NCBI GenBank assembly: GCA_964016885.1
Contig: OZ024756.1
Coordinates: 44,144,001 to 44,208,000, forward strand
Direction of reading: 5' to 3'
Length of the DNA: 64,000 bases
Source of the DNA: Eledone cirrhosa
Lineage: Eukaryota
The notes under the pieces: model-generated
Seen by the model: the letters and a program-made list of their open reading frames with translations, nothing else
Database searches by the model: none
What the model was told of the DNA's origin: nothing
Part shown: positions 4,380-49,340 of the stretch, piece after piece
Position numbering within the stretch: position 1 is the first letter of the stretch
How the letters are laid out: each line of letters opens with the position of its first letter
Position numbers and translations under genes: made by a program

Positions 4380-4775
4380 ACACACACACATATATATATA
4401 TATGATTAGATATATATTTATATATGATTATATATATATATACATACATATATGGATGCATATGTAAACACCCCCTTGGTCACGAATCACAATGGGAATT
4501 GCACCTAGAAAGTTTCCCTCGGAGGCACAAGTCCAGACAAGGTTGTTTGTGGAAGACCAGCAGTCATCCATACATACCAGACTCCGCTCTCTCCATGCCA
4601 CCGATGATGTCCAAGAGAAAGTCAATGACCGATACAGCTTGGCACCAGTGACGTCGCAACTCATTTCTACAGCTGAGTAAACTGGAGCAAACGTGAAATA
4701 AAGTGTCTTGCTCAAGGAAACAACGCATCAACCAGTTTGAGATTCAAACTCACAAGGCAGGAAAAGGTAGACAGT

Positions 4776-4836
<61 letters not shown>

Positions 4837-5327
4837 TTATTCAATTTATATATATAAGAAAAATATGCAATTTTATACACACATATATATGTATGTAGAC
4901 ATATGTAAATATAGACCAATAACTAATATACAAGAACTACGGCCAGCTATGTTTTGTTTCTCTCAGTATTTAATGTAAGTCTGTTAATGATATGCTACAC
5001 TACAGTTAAAACAAGTCTGTACATGTCACACACTGTTTATTTGTGAGATCTCAAGTGAATAAATTCTGTGTCTTATGCAGCAAATGACATATGCAGTGTC
5101 TCTGTGTATGTATGTGTGGTGTGTATATAAATTTATATGTATATCATCATCATCATCATCTTGATGATATACATATATACATATATTATATATATATATA
5201 TATATATATAAACGTTAGAATATGTGTAATAAGGCCAAGACAATGCAGATATGGACATAGGAAAAAGAATGCAATAGTGAGAGATATTGATGAGAATTCG
5301 TCTTTCACCTTGAATTTATTTAAATGT

Positions 5328-5362
5328 CCTTAATTTTCGAGATAATATCTCTTCTTCGGAGG
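5328..5362 (-). ncRNA. Minimal type I hammerhead ribozyme (U4C variant)
   Basis: Minus: CCT-CCGAAGA-A-GAGAT(ATT)ATCTC-GAA-AATT-A-AGG; palindromic stem III AATT; lies in a unique island between (TA)n tracts. Confidence 0.7.
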
Positions 5363-5423
5363 GAAGTAAAAGTCTCAGACCAGCGTCTAAATTTCCAATG
5401 CTTCAAGTGAACTATAACCTCCT

Positions 5424-5470
<47 letters not shown>

Positions 5471-5637
5471 TATTTGTTTATGTTCATACGCAGAACAAAG
5501 GTGTTATCCAAGGTTTCAAGGCCCAGCTTTTGACCATACCTCCAGAAAACAAGTGGCATCAAAATAGTGACCTTTCATACACACACCCACAGACAAATAT
5601 ATATAGAGAAAAAAGCGGACGTATGATGATGATGATG

Positions 5638-5673
<36 letters not shown>

Positions 5674-6677
5674 TGAAATAGAAATAGAAGCTTTGCCGTA
5701 ATATTTTTTAGCATAATATGGGGTGTATAAACCGACTGAACAGAAAAAGCTGGGTATCGGCTCACATCTATTTCCATTCAGTGGGTTTATATTCCCCATT
5801 ATTAGACTATATTATAGTAAAAATGTTATGGCGAGAGCTGATGAAACCCTCCATCTCACCTCATAAAGCAACACACACAAAATCATCATCATTTTCTAAC
5901 CAGAAGAGCTTATATTTAAATTGTTTATCTGTGAGGTGTCTGGCTGATGAAACCCTCCATCTCACCTCATGCAAGCAACACATATCAACTCGTCGCCTTT
6001 TAAGTATCTTCCACAAATTTACCCAATCTACCTTTCATTGTGCCACCAGTGAGAGTAGCGGCTCTGAAATGAAATATAAAATATTGTGGTGTTTTCTGAG
6101 AGAAAACAGTAACATTGAAATAAGTTTCAGTTAGAAAATTAACCAATGAAAATACAGCATTAAACTAGGGCAGTGGTGGCGGTGGTGGTGGTGGTAGTGG
6201 TGGTGGTGGCGGTGGTGGTGGTGGTAGCAGTGGTGGTGGTGGCAGTGGTGGTGGCAGTGGTGGTGGCAGTGGTGGTGAGAGAGAGGAGTGTGTGTGAGAG
6301 TGACAGAGAAAAGGAAGATAGAAAAGGAAATAAATATGGGTGATATATCATCATCATCATCACAACCACTTATAAGGAGGACTGGGTACCTTTTATTGTG
6401 TCACCAGCACAACCACCTTACATCATGCAGCTGTTGAGGGTGCTGTTACTGCTGCTACTGATGATGATGATGGTGTGGCTATTACTTGTGTTGATGATGA
6501 TGATCATGGTGATGCTCTCCTCCACTCCACTCCTCCCTCACTCAACCTCTCCTCCCCCACTCAACCTCTCCATCACTCCTCTCCTCCTTTCTCTCATTCC
6601 ATCTCTCCATCTTAACCAGAACAATCTCAACAATCTCTAACACCAGTTACTGCTGTGACTCTTATAAAACCACTTGT

Positions 6678-7365
6678 GCAGCGTCACGACAGCATCACTG
6701 CAGCATCACGACAGCATCACTGCAGTGTCACGACAGCATCACTGCAGCATCACTGCAGTGTCACGACAGTGTGAGGACAGCATGAGGACAGCGTCATGAC
6801 AGCCTCACGACAGCGTGAGGACAGCGTCATAACAGCGTCACGACAGCGTGAGGACTGTATCACGACAGTGTGAGGACAGCGTGAGGACAGCGTGAGGACA
6901 GTGTCATGCCAGCGTTACAACAGCATGAGGACAGCGTCACAACAGCGTGAGGACAGTGTGAAGACAGCGTGAGGACTGTGTCACGCCAGCATTACAACAG
7001 CATGAGGACAGCGTCACAACAGCGTGAGGACAGTGTGAAGACAGTGTGAAGACAGCGTGAAGACAGCGTGAAGACAGCGTGAAAACAGCGTGAAGACAGC
7101 GTGAGGACAGCGTGAGGACAGCGTGAGGACTGCATCATGACAGCGTCACGACAGCATGAGGACAGCGTCATGGCAGCATCACAACAGCATCACGACAGTG
7201 TCACAACAGCGTGACGACAGCGTGACGACAGCGTCACGGCAGCGTCACGACAGCGTCACGACAGTGTCACGACAGCGTGACGACAGCATGACGACAGTGT
7301 CACAACAGCGTGATGACAGCGTCACGACAGCGTCACTGCAGCGTCTCAGCAGCATCACGACAGCA
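6678..7365. repeat. 11-bp minisatellite (ACAGCGTGAGG / ACAGCGTCACG variants)
   Basis: About 60 degenerate tandem units. Confidence 0.9.
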
Positions 7366-16339: not shown

Positions 16340-16771
16340 GGAATGAGGTGATAAAAGCCGACCTTACCCAACTACACCTCTCAAAGTCAATGATACACGA
16401 CCGTGACTTCTGGCGTCACGCAGTAATACAGGGTACCCGACCTCCCATGGGTACATGCTGAAGCATATAAACAATATGCCCCCCCCCCCCACCACCGCAA
16501 GGTGGTCGTGGAGGTGCCACGGCAAAAAAGCACCCAGCCCACACTGTAAAGTGGACGTGTAGGCGCCACGAAAAAGCACCCAGCACTCACTGTAAATGAG
16601 GTTGGTGTTAGGAAGGGCATCCAGCTGTAGAAATCAAGCCAGATCAGTTCCTGTATGAGCAAGGCATGGTCAGCCGACCAGACACTGCCCACAACAGGAC
16701 AACCCGTCTAACCCATGCTAGCGTGGAAGAACGGACGTAAAACGGTGATGATGATGATGATATTATGGAAT
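16333..16771 (+). mobile_element. Young RTE 3' fragment with 12-bp target-site duplication
   Basis: Nearly identical to the reverse complement of 22587-23015; ATATTATGGAAT at 16333-16344 and 16760-16771; (GAT)n tail. Confidence 0.92.
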
Positions 16772-22586: not shown

Positions 22587-25500
22587 TCATCATCATCATC
22601 ATCACCGTTTTACGTCCGTTCTTCCACGCTAGCATGGGTTAGACGGGTTGTCCCGTTGTGGGCAGTGTCCGGTCGGCTGACCATGCCTTGCTCATACAGG
22701 AACTGATCTGGCTTGATTTCTACAGCTGGATGCCCTTCCTAACACCAACCTCATTTACAGTGAGTGCTGGGTGCTTTTTCGTGGCGCCTACACGTCCACT
22801 TTACAGTGTGGGCTGGGTGCTTTTTTGCCGTGGCACCTCCACGACCACCTTGCGGTGGGGGGGGGGGGGGGGGGGCATATTGTTTATATGCTTCAGCATG
22901 TACCCATGGGAGGTCGGGTACCCTGTATTACTGCGTGACGCCAGAAGTCACGGTCGTGTGTCATTGACTTTGAGAGGTGTAGTTGGGTAAGGTCGGCTTT
23001 TATCACCTCATCCCAAGTCATCTTGGGTCTCCCCACTCCGCGGTTTCCATCAACTTCTAGTGCTCTGCACCTTTTTATGCAGCTGTCATCCTTCATACGC
23101 ATCACATGTCCATACCAGCGTAACCGCCTCTCCTGCACGCAGCATTTGATTCCTCTTATGCTCAGTCTCTCTCTCAATTCATTTATGCTTTGTCGTTCAC
23201 GTATATTACTGTTACACATCCATCGGAGCATGCAGGCTTCGTTTCTCTCTAATCTACGTAAGTCTTCCACCTTCAGCGCCCAGGTCTCACTACCATGCAA
23301 CATCGCTGTTCGGATACACGCATCATACAGTCTGCCTTTCATTCTGAGGGAGAAGCCTTTTGCAGCTAGCAGTGGTAGTAGTTCCCTAAACTTCTTCCAT
23401 CCCGTTCTTACCCTAGTTATTGTACTTTCTGAGCACCCACCTCCGTTGCTAATTCGGTCACCTAGGTAGCAGAAGCTGTCTACTGTTTCTACAGGGCCCT
23501 CCCAGAGATTGGTGGTACTTGTTTCCTGTGGCTGTTTGCTTGCTGTTTCAGCACAGCTGCTGCATGTGAATCCTACATTCTTAATTAAGCTTCCTGAGAT
23601 CCCGCTACATCTCTTGTGTACCCATTGTTTGCATTTGGGGCAAAGAATGGAGTTCCTACCTACACCTTTCCTACATACTGAGCAAGGCCATTTCCCTGAG
23701 GGGATCTGGGTTCTGTTTTCTCGTCTACTTATAAGGACCTTAGTCTTTGTCATGTTGACTTTGAGGCCCTTTCTCTCTAGTCCCTGCTTCCAGGTTTGGA
23801 ATTTATTCTCTAGTTCTACCATAGATTCAGCTATGAGTGCGAGGTCATCAGCATACAGGAGTTCCCATGGGCATCCGGTCTTAAACTCCTCCGTTATTGC
23901 CTGCAGGACTATGATGAACAGGAGAGGGCTAAGAACAGAGCCCTGGTGGACCCCAACCTGTACGCTAAATTCCTCGCTACACTCATTGCCAATCCTAACT
24001 TTGCTGACTGCTCCCCTATACATGGCTTGTACCGCTTTCACAAGCCATTCATCTACTCCTAGTTTTCTAAGAGCCCACCAGATTACTGCACGTGGAACTC
24101 TGTCAAAGGCTTTCTCAAGGTCGACAAATGCCAAGTAGAGTGGCTTACTTTTAGCTAGGTACTTTTCCTGTAATTGCCTCACAAGGAAGAGCGCATCAGT
24201 GGTGCCTTTCCCTGGAACAAACCCAAATTGCATCTCGTCTATATTCACCCGGTCCCTAATCAGCTGTGCTATAACTCTTTCTGTTACTTTCATGACCTGG
24301 TCCATCAACTTTATACCTCTATAGTTTCCTCTATCTAGTGCATCGCCTTTACCTTTGTAGCAGTTGACAATGATGCTACTGCACCAATCTTTTGGTATGG
24401 CCCCCTCTAGTATTACCTGGTTAACGATACGTGTGGTTATAGTGTGACCTACAGACCCAGATGCCTTCAGCATCTCGGCAGCTATACCCGATGGACCGGT
24501 TGCCTTCCCTATCTTCATATCTCTGATTGCCTTACTTACTACGCTGCCGCTGACTTGTACTGCTGGTCCCTCTATAGGGTCTACGTGGGGTAGGGTCTCT
24601 TCTTCCCATGCATTCTCCTCATTTAGTAATCTATCATAATGACTCTTCCATGCATCTTTCTTCTCAGCACTTGTGAGGGCAAGCTCACCTTTATCATTCC
24701 GGATACACTTCTCTCCAATGACATCACAACTATCTCTGACACACTGCCTCGCAATCTTGAATACCTCCTGTTTCTGGTCCTCACGTTGTAAAACATGCTT
24801 GAATTTTCTATCCTCTGCTTCCCTCCTAGCTAAGTATACTTGTCGCCTAGCTTCCCTCTTGGTCTCTATGTAATGTACCCTGCTCCCCCCGTTCTTCCAT
24901 TCTTTCCATGCCTGTCTCTTGGCCTTGACTGCTTCATCTACCTTATTGTTCCACCACCAAGTCACTCTCCTCCTGCTTGAGGTCTTACTCCAGCCACAAA
25001 CCTCATCCGTCGCCTCTAGTAAGTTATTTTTTAGGAACTCCCAGTTCTCTTCTACGTTAAATGTCTCTATCTGTTCTTCTTTACTGTCGTAGGCGTTGAG
25101 TAAAATATCTTTAAATCTGTTACTGGTTGAGGGGACTTTCAGCTTCCAGATCTTTCTTCTCCAGGTTGGCCTCTGTTTCAGGGCTCGTCTAGTTCTGACC
25201 GTGAGGTCGCTGACAACTAAGCTATGTTGGGATGTACATTCCTCACTAGGGAAGGCTTTTGTGTTTACGACCGTCCATCTGTCACGTCCTCTGATGAGGA
25301 TAAAATCTAACTGACTAGAGTGCTCCCCTGATCTATAGGTGATCAGGTGGTTGTCGGGTTTTTTAAAGTTTGTGTTACATATCGACATGTCATTGGCGTC
25401 GCAGAATTCTAGAAGTCTGAATCCTTCCTCATTCCTTGTGCCAACTCCATGGCCTCCATGTACTCTATTGAAGCCGTCGCAGTGTTTACCTACGTGTCCG

Positions 25501-25716
25501 TTAAAATCTCCTGCAATGATTAGGAAGTCCTTGTCGTCTGTTAGAGCAGTAGTGTGTATTAGGGACTCGTAAAACCTATCCTTAAGTTCGTCTGGCAGCC
25601 CCGATTGGGGTGCGTAAGCTGATATTATTGTGGTAATTGTCTTATTCAGGACTAGTCTGAGTTTAATGATTCTTGCATTTACCCTGTACACTGAGATTAC
25701 TTTATCTACCCACTTG

Positions 25717-25718
<2 letters not shown>
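22587..25718 (-). mobile_element. 5'-truncated RTE-clade LINE inserted in a (TA)n/CTTTAA tract
   Basis: Long ORF, about 300-bp 3' UTR and (GAT)n tail; the same compound TA repeat lies on both sides. Confidence 0.97.
22893..25718 (-). CDS. RTE polyprotein: partial AP endonuclease, reverse transcriptase, PHD-like zinc finger
   Basis: AYAPQ, GDFNGHVG, SQLDFIL and SQH (APE); NYRGIKL, QFGF, FVDLEKAFD, GVHQGSVLSP, LLYADD (RT); C4HC3 finger; RRLRWYGHV. Frame stays open to the truncation point at 25718 (DKWVDKVISVYRVN). Confidence 0.97.
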
Positions 25719-25778
<60 letters not shown>

Positions 25779-25830
25779 TTTAATATATATATATATATAT
25801 ATACTTTAATATATATATATATATATATAC

Positions 25831-29803: not shown

Positions 29804-29868
29804 TATTTTATCTGATGAAAGCGCACCATAATTTGACTTGGTGTCCTTGAAATATGTATAATGAAATA
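29804..29868 (+). ncRNA. Type I hammerhead ribozyme
   Basis: TATTTTAT-CTGATGA-AAGCGCACCA(10 nt)TGGTGTCCTT-GAA-ATATGTAT-A-ATGAAATA; 8-bp stem I; inside an inverted mini-element 29678-29905 between (TA)n tracts. Confidence 0.88.
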
Positions 29869-38288: not shown

Positions 38289-38330
38289 ATCTCCTGATGA
38301 AGGACTAGTGTCCGAAACTTTAAAATTCTC
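38289..38330 (+). ncRNA. Degenerate minimal hammerhead
   Basis: CTGATGA-A-GGAC(TAGT)GTCC-GAAAC-TTTA; core and stem II intact, stems I and III damaged. Confidence 0.55.
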
Positions 38331-38557: not shown

Positions 38558-38594
<37 letters not shown>

Positions 38595-38650
38595 TAAACA
38601 AATAATGAATAAAACAATGAAACAGTTCCTTATATTAAACAAAAAAAGTT

Positions 38651-38800
38651 CATTATTTAACGATCGTTTCTAGGATATATATGTGTTAGAATTGGCATGC
38701 ATATTCAACAGATCTATGTACAAAATTATACAAAATTATACAAACTATCAAGATTAAATATACATACCAAACACACATATATGCCGTCTTCAGAAATAAT
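38651..38800 (-). ncRNA. Hammerhead ribozyme, mirror copy
   Basis: Reverse complement of 38812-38961. Confidence 0.85.
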
Positions 38801-38810
38801 CTGAAATAAT

Positions 38811-38961
38811 CATTATTTCTGAAGACGGCATATATGTGTGTTTGGTATGTATATTTAATCTTGATAGTTTGTATAATTTTGTATAATTTTGTACATAGAT
38901 CTGTTGAATATGCATGCCAATTCTAACACATATATATCCTAGAAACGATCGTTAAATAATG
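38811..38961 (+). ncRNA. Type I hammerhead ribozyme with about 115-nt stem II
   Basis: CATTATTT-CTGAAGA-[CGGCATATATGTGT...ACACATATATATCCTA]-GAA-ACGATCGT-T-AAATAATG; perfect 8-bp stem I, palindromic stem III. Confidence 0.87.
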
Positions 38962-39235
38962 AACTTTTTTTGTTTAATATAAGGAACTGTTTCATTGTTT
39001 TATTCATTATTTGTTTAATATTTTATCTTGACTCTGTATACCGTTTATCTTTCACCGAAAGTGATTTTTCATTACATCTCTTCTTTCCATGATATCCGGA
39101 ATACATTGAGTTCTTCATACGGATTGGACACTACCGTAAACTCTTGGTAGATTTATCTACATATATATATATATATATATAATAAGGAAAATGTGAAGTT
39201 CAATGTAAATGTTAGAGAGTCCTTTATTAACAAAA

Positions 39236-39307
39236 CTGTGATACATATTTCAATGACAATCAAGGATGGTTGAATCACGTAACCGGTCATGAGATATCAT
39301 CAGACAG
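39236..39307 (-). ncRNA. Type I hammerhead ribozyme
   Basis: Minus: CTGT-CTGATGA-TATCTC-ATGAC...GTCAT-T-GAA-ATATGTAT-C-ACAG; stem I CTGT/ACAG, AUC cleavage triplet. Confidence 0.8.
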
Positions 39308-39942
39308 CTTCTTTATGTTATAAGATACGGTACCGGGGCAATCCAATCTAAAGACAAGGAAACAGTCTTGGACTCTGAAAACATGATTTCTGTCTCTTCC
39401 TTTGTCTCTAGATTGGATTGCTTGGGATAAGTAACCTTATTACATAACTGATGAAGAGGAAGAGAGGTAGAAGAGATGATGAGGAAGAAGAGGTAGAAGA
39501 GATGATGAGGAAGAAGAGGTAGAAGAGATGATGAGGAGGACGATGACAACGATGATGATGATGAGTAGGAGGAGACTGAGGAGTTGAAGGAGGAAGTGAA
39601 GTAGTGAGAACATGTGACACATGTAAGATCAGATCACTCTCTCTCTCTTCCATCCAAAGACCTCATTAGCTACTGATATTATATGATACTACTCTATCTT
39701 ACTCTATCACAATTTCACTATCGCCAGCCATGTAATTAACTGGCTTGATTAAGATAACGAATCGTCTAATCAACTTCTTATAGCCTACAGGGATTTTTAT
39801 ATATCTCCTGCATTTAAACATACATATATTATATTTATATGTATGTGTATATATATATATGTAAATATGTGTGTGTTCATATATATGTGTGTGTATGTAT
39901 ATATACATATATATACATATATATATATACATATATATATCT

Positions 39943-48039: not shown

Positions 48040-48951
48040 TATCTATTTATCTATCTATTTATCTATCTATCTATATATATATATCAACAAGTATACCGAT
48101 GGAAAAATCAGCATCTATCATTTAAATTACCATATTCAATCCCTTACACATTTTTCAAAGGAATTTTACATCCAATTATTTACATCCAGTTTGGAGAACT
48201 GTGTTTTGCTCACACAGAACTGATTTTGGCTTGGTCTCTAAAGCTGGATGCCCTTCCTAAAGCCAACCACATTTACAGTGTGGACTGGGTGCTTTTTGTT
48301 GTAATAACCTACACGACCAGTTTACAGGGTGGACTGGGTGTGACTGTCAGACCATATGGAGGTTGTGGTATGACTGTCAGACAATATGGAGGTTGTGGTA
48401 TGCCTGTCAGGCAGATCATCAATTCATTGCCAAGATGGTAGCCCCATCATCCAACTATTCTACTGAGGGCCAACCACCCATCCCAGGAGAAATTTCATCT
48501 CGTTACAACACACAGTTATATTAACTGGGTAGATACAATGAAAGATAGGTCTAGATCCTAGATATTTAATTCTATATGTACTGTATGTTGATTTGGAATG
48601 GATACATAAATAGATATTAAAGAAGCCAGCCCAACAGTATTGGACACACACACACAATAATAAGAAGCCAGTTGTGGACAGCTTGGCAGTCTATAAATCC
48701 TCCTCCATTATACAAGTATATATCAAGTCTTACATTCAACTGCCATCTTTGTTTGCAATGATTCAGCAGATTTGAAAGAGGAGAATAAATGAAAGGAAAG
48801 GATTGCCTTGCTAGTTCTTGAAGAGAGACTATTGGAAAAGGAAGAGAAGAGTTAAAACATAAGAAAAGAATGGTAATATGTAAAATAAATACAGGATATT
48901 GTCTACTGGTATATATATATAAGATCAAAAGATGGTTAAATGAGTTCCATG

Positions 48952-49022
48952 TATTTTATTATGCGCATTTCAAAAACAAATATCATCATGCAATAACATT
49001 TGTGTTTTCATCAGATAAAATA
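48952..49022 (-). ncRNA. Hammerhead ribozyme, mirror copy
   Basis: Reverse complement of 49147-49217. Confidence 0.9.
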
Positions 49023-49146
49023 GGAGGACATGATATGAAGGTTAAAAAACACTTGTGGATAGTGCCGTTTTAAATCAACATATATATATGTTGATTTAAA
49101 ACGGCACTATCCACAAGTGTTTTTTAACCTTCATATCATGTCCTCC

Positions 49147-49217
49147 TATTTTATCTGATGAAAACACAAATGTTATTGCATGATGATATTTGTTTTTGAA
49201 ATGCGCATAATAAAATA
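49147..49217 (+). ncRNA. Type I hammerhead ribozyme
   Basis: TATTTTAT-CTGATGA-AAAC-ACAAATGTTATT(GCAT)GATGATATTTGT-TTTT-GAA-ATGCGCAT-A-ATAAAATA; all core residues present, perfect 8-bp stem I, palindromic stem III. Confidence 0.92.
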
Positions 49218-49340
49218 CATGGAACTCATTTAACCATCTTTTGATCTTATATATTATGTATACTCCAGTCCTACAAACTGTAGAGTGCTTCTTATCCGAT
49301 ATCTGCATTGCTTTATTGTACTACAATAAAACTCACCTCC

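What the first reader, a model, noticed from the sequence alone, without database searches (positions are those of the whole stretch)
38586..39160. Second palindrome with a hammerhead pair whose stem II carries about 115 nt
Seen: 215-bp arms with an 11-bp spacer. The ribozyme has a perfect 8-bp stem I and an ACGATCGT stem III, but CTGAAGA and GAAA are separated by 116 nt closed by ATATATGTGT/ACACATATAT. Size-limited descriptor searches would miss it. The spacer CTGAAATAATC partly repeats the arm end, suggesting slippage during fold-back synthesis.
Basis: partly seen in the sequence, partly recalled or inferred. Interest (0 to 1): 0.75.

Follow-up and report, generated by a model that had tools for sequence, protein, structure and literature searches.

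The report
Penelope hammerhead with 116-base stem II
This palindrome is a two-armed insertion of the end of a very young, high-copy Penelope-like jumping gene, and its predicted self-cutting hammerhead RNA carries an arm about 100 bases longer than in published relatives; genomic copies suggest where the RNA starts and that it is likely cut, rarely, at the predicted spot.

Summary
Observation confirmed. 38586-39160 is a back-to-back insertion, in a TA repeat, of the terminal repeat of a young Hydra-clade Penelope-like retroelement (about 124 of 150 scored copies have open 820-847-aa frames). Each arm holds a type I hammerhead with 116 nt in stem II. The long stem is the fixed state of a lineage of four families (over 11,000 pattern hits; inserts 97-126 nt). 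The basal helix was rewritten between families yet still pairs, and one family has a U3-A8 core swap and a compensated stem I. Of 35 palindromic junctions found near the cut site, 5 start exactly there on both arms with no microhomology: indirect evidence of rare cutting. Of 30 copies chosen by their 3' end, 13 begin at 38812-38820, so the RNA likely starts at the ribozyme's first base. Two-armed insertions have one short and one long end (39 of 40). A downstream strand is predicted to keep the ribozyme mostly off. No RNA data or assay. Inverted ends and hammerheads are known in these elements; the stem size is new against the papers searched. The scan noted similar oversized hammerheads on other DNA before.

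The parts
38562..38585 (.). (TA)n target microsatellite, left flank
   Evidence: sequence
38586..38800 (-). Inverted arm: pLTR copy from A38812-equivalent to the short fixed end (39026-equivalent); holds a mirror hammerhead (core 38793-38787, stem II 38786-38671, U17 at 38659) with 7-bp stem I
   Evidence: mirror positions by symmetry
38801..38811 (.). 11-nt junction; in cDNA sense: arm end + C, re-copy of the last bases + C. Templated re-priming plus likely non-templated C
38812..39026 (+). Direct arm of the pLTR; A38812 is the inferred RNA 5' end (Inr-like TCA+1TT)
38810..38818 (+). Stem I 5' strand (7 nt if RNA starts at 38812, 9 nt in read-through RNA)
38819..38825 (+). Hammerhead core C3-A9 (CUGAAGA); U3-A8 in a sister family
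38826..38941 (+). 116-nt stem II: C.A and C.C mismatches at the base, long basal and middle helices, apical hairpin
38845..38898 (+). GTATGT...TTGAT...TACATAG, 54 nt: splice-like signals inside stem II (42-54 nt typical across families); untested, no intron-less copy found
38862..38901 (+). Near-invariant apical motif TGATA-N-TTTGT..loop..ACATAGATC (72 of 89 copies of four families); function open
38942..38953 (+). G12-A13-A14, palindromic stem III ACGATCGT (38945-38952), U17 at 38953; predicted cut 38953/38954
38954..38962 (+). Stem I 3' strand
39003..39012 (+). Rival strand TTCATTATTT that can pair 38954-38963 instead of stem I
39027..39160 (+). 134-nt one-sided tail between the short (39026) and long (39160) fixed ends; in full copies it runs on to the ORF start 495 nt after C3
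39161..39181 (.). (TA)n target microsatellite, right flank
   Evidence: sequence

Best explanation
This is a two-armed insertion of the terminal repeat (pLTR) of a young Hydra-clade Penelope-like retrotransposon, and each arm carries a type I hammerhead motif with a conserved 116-nt stem II that is likely a real but mostly switched-off ribozyme. Inferred working: the element's RNA starts at A38812, so the ribozyme is the first ~150 nt of the transcript. The element's enzyme breaks a (TA)n repeat and primes reverse transcription of one RNA from two fixed internal sites (39026 and 39160), one for each broken end. Both cDNAs run off at the RNA 5' end, often adding a C and re-priming, and are joined head to head, giving this palindrome with a one-sided 134-nt tail. 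Cleavage after U38953 would need stem I plus, probably, dimerisation through the palindromic stem III; a rival strand at 39003-39012 and the short 7-bp stem I would keep it rare. Stem II grows freely because the core needs only its base; the long hairpin keeps the two core halves together and presents an invariant apical motif, most likely a protein-binding or internal-promoter element. Shown: carrier identity, copy structure, pairing conservation. Inferred: start site, double priming, cleavage, switch.
For: Carrier: L020/L031 continue from this sequence into an RT + C-terminal GIY-YIG ORF with RWR, DKT, CxCx5C, CxxC and CxH motifs and no literal CCHH string, the Hydra diagnostics (PMC8557442 section 11). 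22 of 30 ORF loci show the long hammerhead upstream. Lineage: 6539, 4777, 1092 and 319 pattern hits (sets overlap in part; controls 0, 12, 0, 0). In 89 distinct inserts, basal positions 5-11 pair 0.91-0.99 within a family; 0.31-0.69 across Y/O, G and U families. C.A and C.C mismatches are the commonest state in all four. The U family was found through a chance CTGATGA; its true, unselected core read UUGACAA in 5 of 5 first copies, with stem I pairs 3-4 changed to C-G/G-C. It lies in the 3' pLTR of a sister ORF, 74% identical over 180 aa. 38810-38962 folds as a hammerhead at MFE. Cut-site footprints: 5 of 13 older-family junctions start exactly after H17 on both arms without microhomology (binomial 0.0008 under a rough 1/16 null), at independent loci. 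Ends: 20 of 20 (L110-129), 13 of 13 (L180-192) and 6 of 7 others have one short and one long end. 5' ends: 13 of 30 at 38812-38820, none at 38807-38811; G just before A38812 in 9 of 30 against 19 of 180 nearby (p 0.003).
Against: No RNA evidence and no assay. The 3' core (GAAACGATCG) was a search criterion for all families and CTGANGA for three, so their conservation is partly by construction. Covariation rests on three independent basal-helix states and one core swap; Y and O cross-pair at 0.96-0.97, and slid-partner controls reach 0.74-0.86 for Y/O (AT repeats) and 0.76-0.96 for U at a 3-nt slide. Sense folds better than antisense in 69 of 89, only 14 of 28 in family O. Some G and U copies fold weakly (z -1.3 to -2.7). 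The canonical G10.1-C11.1 pair is absent (C.A), and the young family has GUU, not GUA. Stem I probability is near 0 once 70 nt downstream are included (0.01-0.17 in U). 0 of 30 copies begin at the cut site, and 11 of 35 junctions fall at the stem III palindrome centre, showing that hotspots arise from microhomology alone. One extra C also occurs at an uncapped cut-site junction (L184), so the G is not proof of a cap. In Anolis Poseidon, the ribozyme was dispensable for insertion in vitro (PMC11167929).
Confidence: 0.72

Rival explanations
1. The motif is a structurally conserved but catalytically dead hammerhead relic. The fold is kept as a protein-binding or promoter element, and the cut-site junctions come from RT pausing or end joining.
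For: C.A at the stem II base, GUU triplet, stem I out-competed in folding; 0 of 30 copies start at the cut site; apical motif conserved in sequence, not only in pairing.
Against: U3-A8 swap with only N7 free in the unselected core; blunt T3A3 junctions need both arms to end exactly after H17; mismatch at the stem II base and U17 occur in published Hydra motifs (File S2) and a U-U base supports cleavage (PMC3088659 passage).
Confidence: 0.2
2. The palindrome forms by snap-back: one cDNA from the long site folds back at the RNA 5' end and copies itself, and the endonuclease resolves it at the short site (self-priming idea of PMC3846280; the first reader's fold-back).
For: Arms of one insertion are the same subfamily variant (0 differences in 12 of 20, at most 6 in 19 of 20); re-copied arm ends in junctions.
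Against: Single-armed insertions exist with either end (short only: L151, L163, L167, L177; long only: L004, L008), so both sites can start an insertion; two adjacent initiation sites and extension of both strands were shown for a relative (PMC11167929). Same-variant arms also fit two passes on one RNA.
Confidence: 0.25
3. The RNA 5' end at 38812-38820 is not a start site but the downstream product of poly(A) cleavage directed by the AATAAA 9 nt upstream.
For: AATAAA within 25 nt upstream in 46 of 89 copies, all four families, counting truncated copies that lack the region; GU-rich sequence follows; ends spread over 38812-38820.
Against: Mode exactly at the A of TCA+1TT with excess G before it; spacing of 9 nt is short for cleavage (general knowledge); Penelope start sites lie in the pLTR (PMC8557442 passage).
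Confidence: 0.2
4. Stem II is long because it holds a retained 42-54-nt spliceosomal intron (GTATGT/GTAAGT, YTGAT, T-rich, CATAG), like the 5'-UTR intron of Penelope.
For: Signals in the right order in all four families, lengths mostly 42-54 nt; precedent for an intron overlapping promoter and hammerhead (PMC4209133; PMC8557442).
Against: 0 of 27 and 0 of 10 shortened genomic copies are precise intron losses (weak, since these elements retain introns); 42 nt with ~19 nt from donor to branch point is very short; some G-family copies have ATGAT; removal would still leave ~55-60 nt; the signals also fit the predicted hairpin.
Confidence: 0.12

Closest known systems
Hydra clade of C-terminal EN+ Penelope-like elements and their hammerheads (Craig et al. 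2021, PMC8557442; passages, section 11 and supplement part 2 read)
   Same: ORF motifs, (TA)n targeting, inverted 5'-truncated copy, one-sided tail, type I hammerhead in the pLTR with palindromic stem III and often a mismatch at the base of stem II.
   Different: Stem II insert 97-126 nt against about 12-26 nt in the 26 Hydra rows of File S2 (counted by eye; longest in the whole table about 54 nt); tail 134 nt against 30-40; tandem unit about 6.6 kb against under 3 kb.
Minimal PLE hammerheads, including the U3-A8 variant of Schistosoma Cercyon and the intron-overlapping D. virilis motif (Cervera and de la Pena 2014, PMC4209133; parts 1-2 of 4 read)
   Same: Dimer-type stem III, U3-A8 covariation, motifs 100-700 bp apart on opposite strands.
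   Different: Helix II there is 6-8 bp with G10.1-C11.1; here about 35 bp in stacked helices, C.A at the base and an invariant apical motif.
Poseidon PAc of Anolis (Frangieh et al. 2024, PMC11167929; parts 1-2 of 4 read)
   Same: Two internal initiation sites that define the tail, both strands extended, predicted dimer; protein-assisted hammerhead near the 5' end.
   Different: Sites there are adjacent and inside the ORF, and no RNA ends were found at the cut; here they are 134 nt apart in the 5' UTR and a few genomic junctions mark the cut.
Animal non-LTR retrozymes (PMC7229834, passages; bioRxiv 10.64898/2026.07.22.740005, part 1 of 5)
   Same: Type I hammerhead in mobile repeats derived from or carried by PLEs.
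   Different: Here the carrier is autonomous and protein-coding, not a tandem non-coding unit.

Membership tests
Hydra-clade PLE | Single ORF with RT and C-terminal GIY-YIG endonuclease | tested here: met
   YRDD at 346, VY..YIG at 693 in L031; Pfam itself gave 0 hits, so the assignment is by motif
Hydra-clade PLE | RWK-like motif, DKT, CxCx5C linker, CxxC and CxH around the EN end | tested here: met
   RWR 37, DKT 115, CNCRNKANC 673, CRLC 771, CNH 799 against section 11
Hydra-clade PLE | Placement in the Hydra clade on an RT tree | not tested
   No tree built; reference proteins seen only as supplement text
Hydra-clade PLE | pLTRs, inverted truncated copy, one-sided tail, (TA)n target | tested here: met
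   tail is 134 nt rather than 30-40
Hydra-clade PLE | Generally under 3 kb | tested here: not met
   pLTR-to-pLTR 6.1 kb in L031, tandem spacing about 6.6 kb, owing to a long 3' UTR; a tendency in the paper, not a diagnostic
Type I hammerhead ribozyme | Core C3 U4 G5 A6 N7 G8 A9, G12 A13 A14, A15.1-U16.1, H17 | tested here: met
   window; U3-A8 in 28 of 28 U-family copies, N7 = C/A/U (23 of them selected on that core)
Type I hammerhead ribozyme | Three helices around the core, supported by covariation | tested here: met
   stems I and II; stem III is invariant by selection and weak as a monomer (P about 0.2)
Type I hammerhead ribozyme | G10.1-C11.1 closing pair of stem II | tested here: not met
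   C.A in 86 of 89; usual but not required, U.U is common in Hydra motifs
Type I hammerhead ribozyme | Self-cleavage after H17 | tested here: inconclusive
   indirect only: 5 of 13 older-family junctions exact; 0 of 30 unselected copies; no assay possible
Type I hammerhead ribozyme | Loop I-loop II tertiary contact | not testable with these tools
   no candidate identified
Non-LTR retrozyme | Non-coding tandem unit of 150-500 nt | tested here: not met
   sequence belongs to an ORF-bearing element

The most novel reading that the evidence does not exclude
The oversized hammerhead is a regulated 5'-end module: it begins at the cap, is held off by a conserved rival strand lying just before the first initiation site, fires only in read-through or protein-remodelled RNA, and its 100-nt stem II carries the element's recognition signal (possibly a retained micro-intron). 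The genome then records all four landmarks of Penelope copying (RNA start, ribozyme cut, two priming sites) at single-base resolution.
Probability: 0.3. Interest if true: 0.75.

Novelty: new variant of a known kind. Interest (0 to 1): 0.55.

Why it matters
What the hammerhead does in Penelope-like elements, and how their head-to-head insertions form, are stated open questions (PMC8557442, PMC11167929). This family has over a hundred intact ORFs, thousands of near-identical insertions with base-exact ends, and four diverged ribozyme versions, so it offers ready constructs and natural controls. It also shows that stem II can reach about 120 nt in a thriving element, so size-limited searches undercount ribozymes, and some 'no hammerhead' calls may be artefacts. 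It is not a new ribozyme class or a new kind of element.

Tried and rejected
Rfam: no hammerhead among the top 150 of 267 window hits, none at 38801-39170, but also none at the compact core at 38294, so the miss says nothing about stem size. Pfam: 0 families on the ORF. Sequencing runs: no RNA holder listed; contigs of four unlabelled runs showed no joint at the candidate intron, which is no evidence either way. Neptune and Naiad assignment: my first guess was Neptune; rejected on motifs and domain order. Splicing to the AG at G12 to rebuild a compact hammerhead: rejected; G12 would be lost in two families and 0 of 10 short-stem copies are such products. A short-stem ancestral family with this core context: none (10 and 27 scattered deletions). 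Assembly artefact: rejected, same architecture at dozens of independent loci. MAFFT alignments A1/A2 misplace the basal helix, so pairs were counted by offset from the core. The rival strand at the 9-of-10 threshold is not discriminating (47-60% of shuffles in three families); only 10 of 10 is (64 of 89 against 1-8%). L082/083/086 (branched stem II), L079 and L065 were left out of the 89 as a different family or chance hits. Minimum intron length in this animal group: search gave nothing usable; cap-copying literature search gave one irrelevant paper, so that signature is recalled. Lunse et al. 2017 not held. Novelty searches; subscription papers and Repbase were not searchable.

Full report
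Observation. The palindrome is exact: arms 38586-38800 and 38812-39026, spacer CTGAAATAATC, both outer ends in (TA)n, with 134 further bases (39027-39160) on the right only. On + the core box is at 38819, the insert 38826-38941 (116 nt), G12 at 38942 and U17 at 38953. Stem I is 9 bp on + and 7 bp on -. The region folds far better than shuffles (z -5.8), and 38810-38962 adopts the hammerhead as its minimum-energy fold.

Carrier. The genome is 3.0 Gb; a search with 38805-39160 gave 673 candidates, the 40 scored 99-100% identical. In L020/L031 the sequence continues past 39160 into an ORF with RT and C-terminal GIY-YIG, then a long 3' UTR and a second pLTR that stops at the 39026-equivalent. Motifs RWR, DKT, CxCx5C, CxxC and CxH match the Hydra clade as described in PMC8557442 section 11; no tree was built. 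About 124 of 150 scored N-terminal matches sit in open frames of 820-847 aa (counted by eye), so the family is very young. 22 of 30 such loci show the long hammerhead upstream, 21 of them 477-498 nt before the ATG. Inverted truncated copies, one-sided tails and hammerheads in pLTRs are all described for these elements.

The long stem is a lineage trait. Pattern counts: 6539, 4777 with a different stem start, 1092 with a U3-A8 core, 319 with a G-rich base; the sets overlap in part and controls were 0-12. Only 27 and 10 shorter versions exist, all scattered deletions. I compared 89 distinct inserts picked for diversity from the first rows of these lists (23 Y, 28 O, 10 G, 28 U; 97-126 nt; families 64-90% identical). 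The basal helix is AU-alternating in Y/O, G-rich in G and different again in U, and pairs 0.91-0.99 within families but 0.31-0.69 across these three states; C.A and C.C mismatches at positions 1 and 4 persist. The U family entered through a chance CTGATGA inside its stem; its real core, not selected for, read UUGACAA in all 5 first copies, a U3-A8 swap known from Schistosoma, and stem I pairs 3-4 changed from U-A/A-U to C-G/G-C. It is attached to a sister ORF (74% over 180 aa). Limits: few independent events, 3' core selected by the search, high slid-partner controls in repetitive helices, weak folding in some old copies. Published Hydra stems hold about 12-26 nt (File S2).

Does it cut? A search for back-to-back junctions near the cut site found 35 genome-wide. 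Eleven lie at the centre of the stem III palindrome (microhomology), two look unrelated. Among 13 older-family junctions, five have both arms starting exactly after H17 where the natural sequence offers no microhomology; L184 (extra C) and L181 (one arm) add to this. The 13 loci fetched are independent insertions. A rough null gives 0.0008. Against thousands of copies this is rare: 0 of 30 copies chosen by their 3' end start there. Folding offers a reason: with RNA starting at 38812, or with 70 nt downstream, stem I is out-competed, and a strand at 39003-39012 pairs all 10 bases after the cut in 64 of 89 copies against 1-8% of shuffles. The start-dependent effect does not hold in family U; the downstream effect does. 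Cleavage is therefore inferred, not shown.

How the palindrome formed. Two-armed insertions carry one short and one long end in 39 of 40; single-armed ones exist with either end. The two arms are the same subfamily variant. In the first 100 rows, 15 of 32 back-to-back pairs turn within 49 nt (counted by eye). Of 30 copies, 13 begin at 38812-38820, none at 38807-38811, 11 run beyond the 570 nt examined. 2090 arms begin at A38812 without the native C; about 26 of the first 100 have G in front (by eye), and 9 of 30 in held loci against 19 of 180 nearby. This fits run-off at an RNA 5' end in an Inr-like TCA+1TT, with C added opposite the cap (cap copying is recalled knowledge; one uncapped junction also has an extra C). 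The window's spacer reads as arm end + C, re-copy + C. Double priming at two sites fits the in vitro behaviour of Poseidon; snap-back with endonuclease resolution and a poly(A)-cleavage origin of the 5' end remain rivals.

Open feature. The tip of stem II is near-invariant in sequence (72 of 89) while its loop and neighbours drift. It may bind the element's protein, act as internal promoter, or be the 3' half of a 42-54-nt intron; no precise intron-less copy was found and no RNA run was available.

Verdict. A real feature, a new variant of a known kind. The searches showed no description of a stem II of this size; Lunse 2017 and Repbase could not be seen. Earlier scan notes on this and other genomes report oversized hammerheads, double priming and start-site turns in other families; they supplied leads, and none matched this sequence. 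Interest 0.55.

Noticed in passing
window 48916-49253: Another palindrome with a hammerhead pair (36-nt stem II, stem III palindrome ATGCGCAT); a related core with 30-nt insert at 29812.
   Followed up: no
window 4078, 27587(-), 28346, 38294, 55111: Compact hammerhead cores (12-17-nt stem II) from other repeat families; Rfam misses the one at 38294.
   Followed up: partly
window 22893-25805 (-): Open 970-aa endonuclease + reverse transcriptase frame of a LINE (RTE-like, recalled), with inverted copies of its end at 16343-16755.
   Followed up: no
L082, L083, L086: A different family shares the ACGATCGT stem III but has G10.1-C11.1, GUC and a two-hairpin 97-nt stem II; left out of the counts.
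   Followed up: no
L031:2014-4455 and 4455-7068: ORF has an Asn/Lys/Thr-rich insert after the RT thumb, like N-rich inserts in rotifer Penelopes, and a microsatellite-laden 3' UTR of about 2.6 kb; this copy has a premature stop near the C-terminus.
   Followed up: no
window 38812-39314 equivalent (L031:1512-2016): The inferred 5' UTR of about 500 nt holds 10 upstream ATGs, so translation from the capped RNA is not straightforward; splicing, cleavage or internal entry may matter.
   Followed up: no
L002, L018, L130, L132, L134: Other Hydra-like families (42-59% protein identity where measured) nested in the same TA tracts.
   Followed up: no
window 38953: H17 is U in the youngest family (23 of 23) and A in the three older ones (62 of 66), a recent GUA-to-GUU change.
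   Followed up: partly
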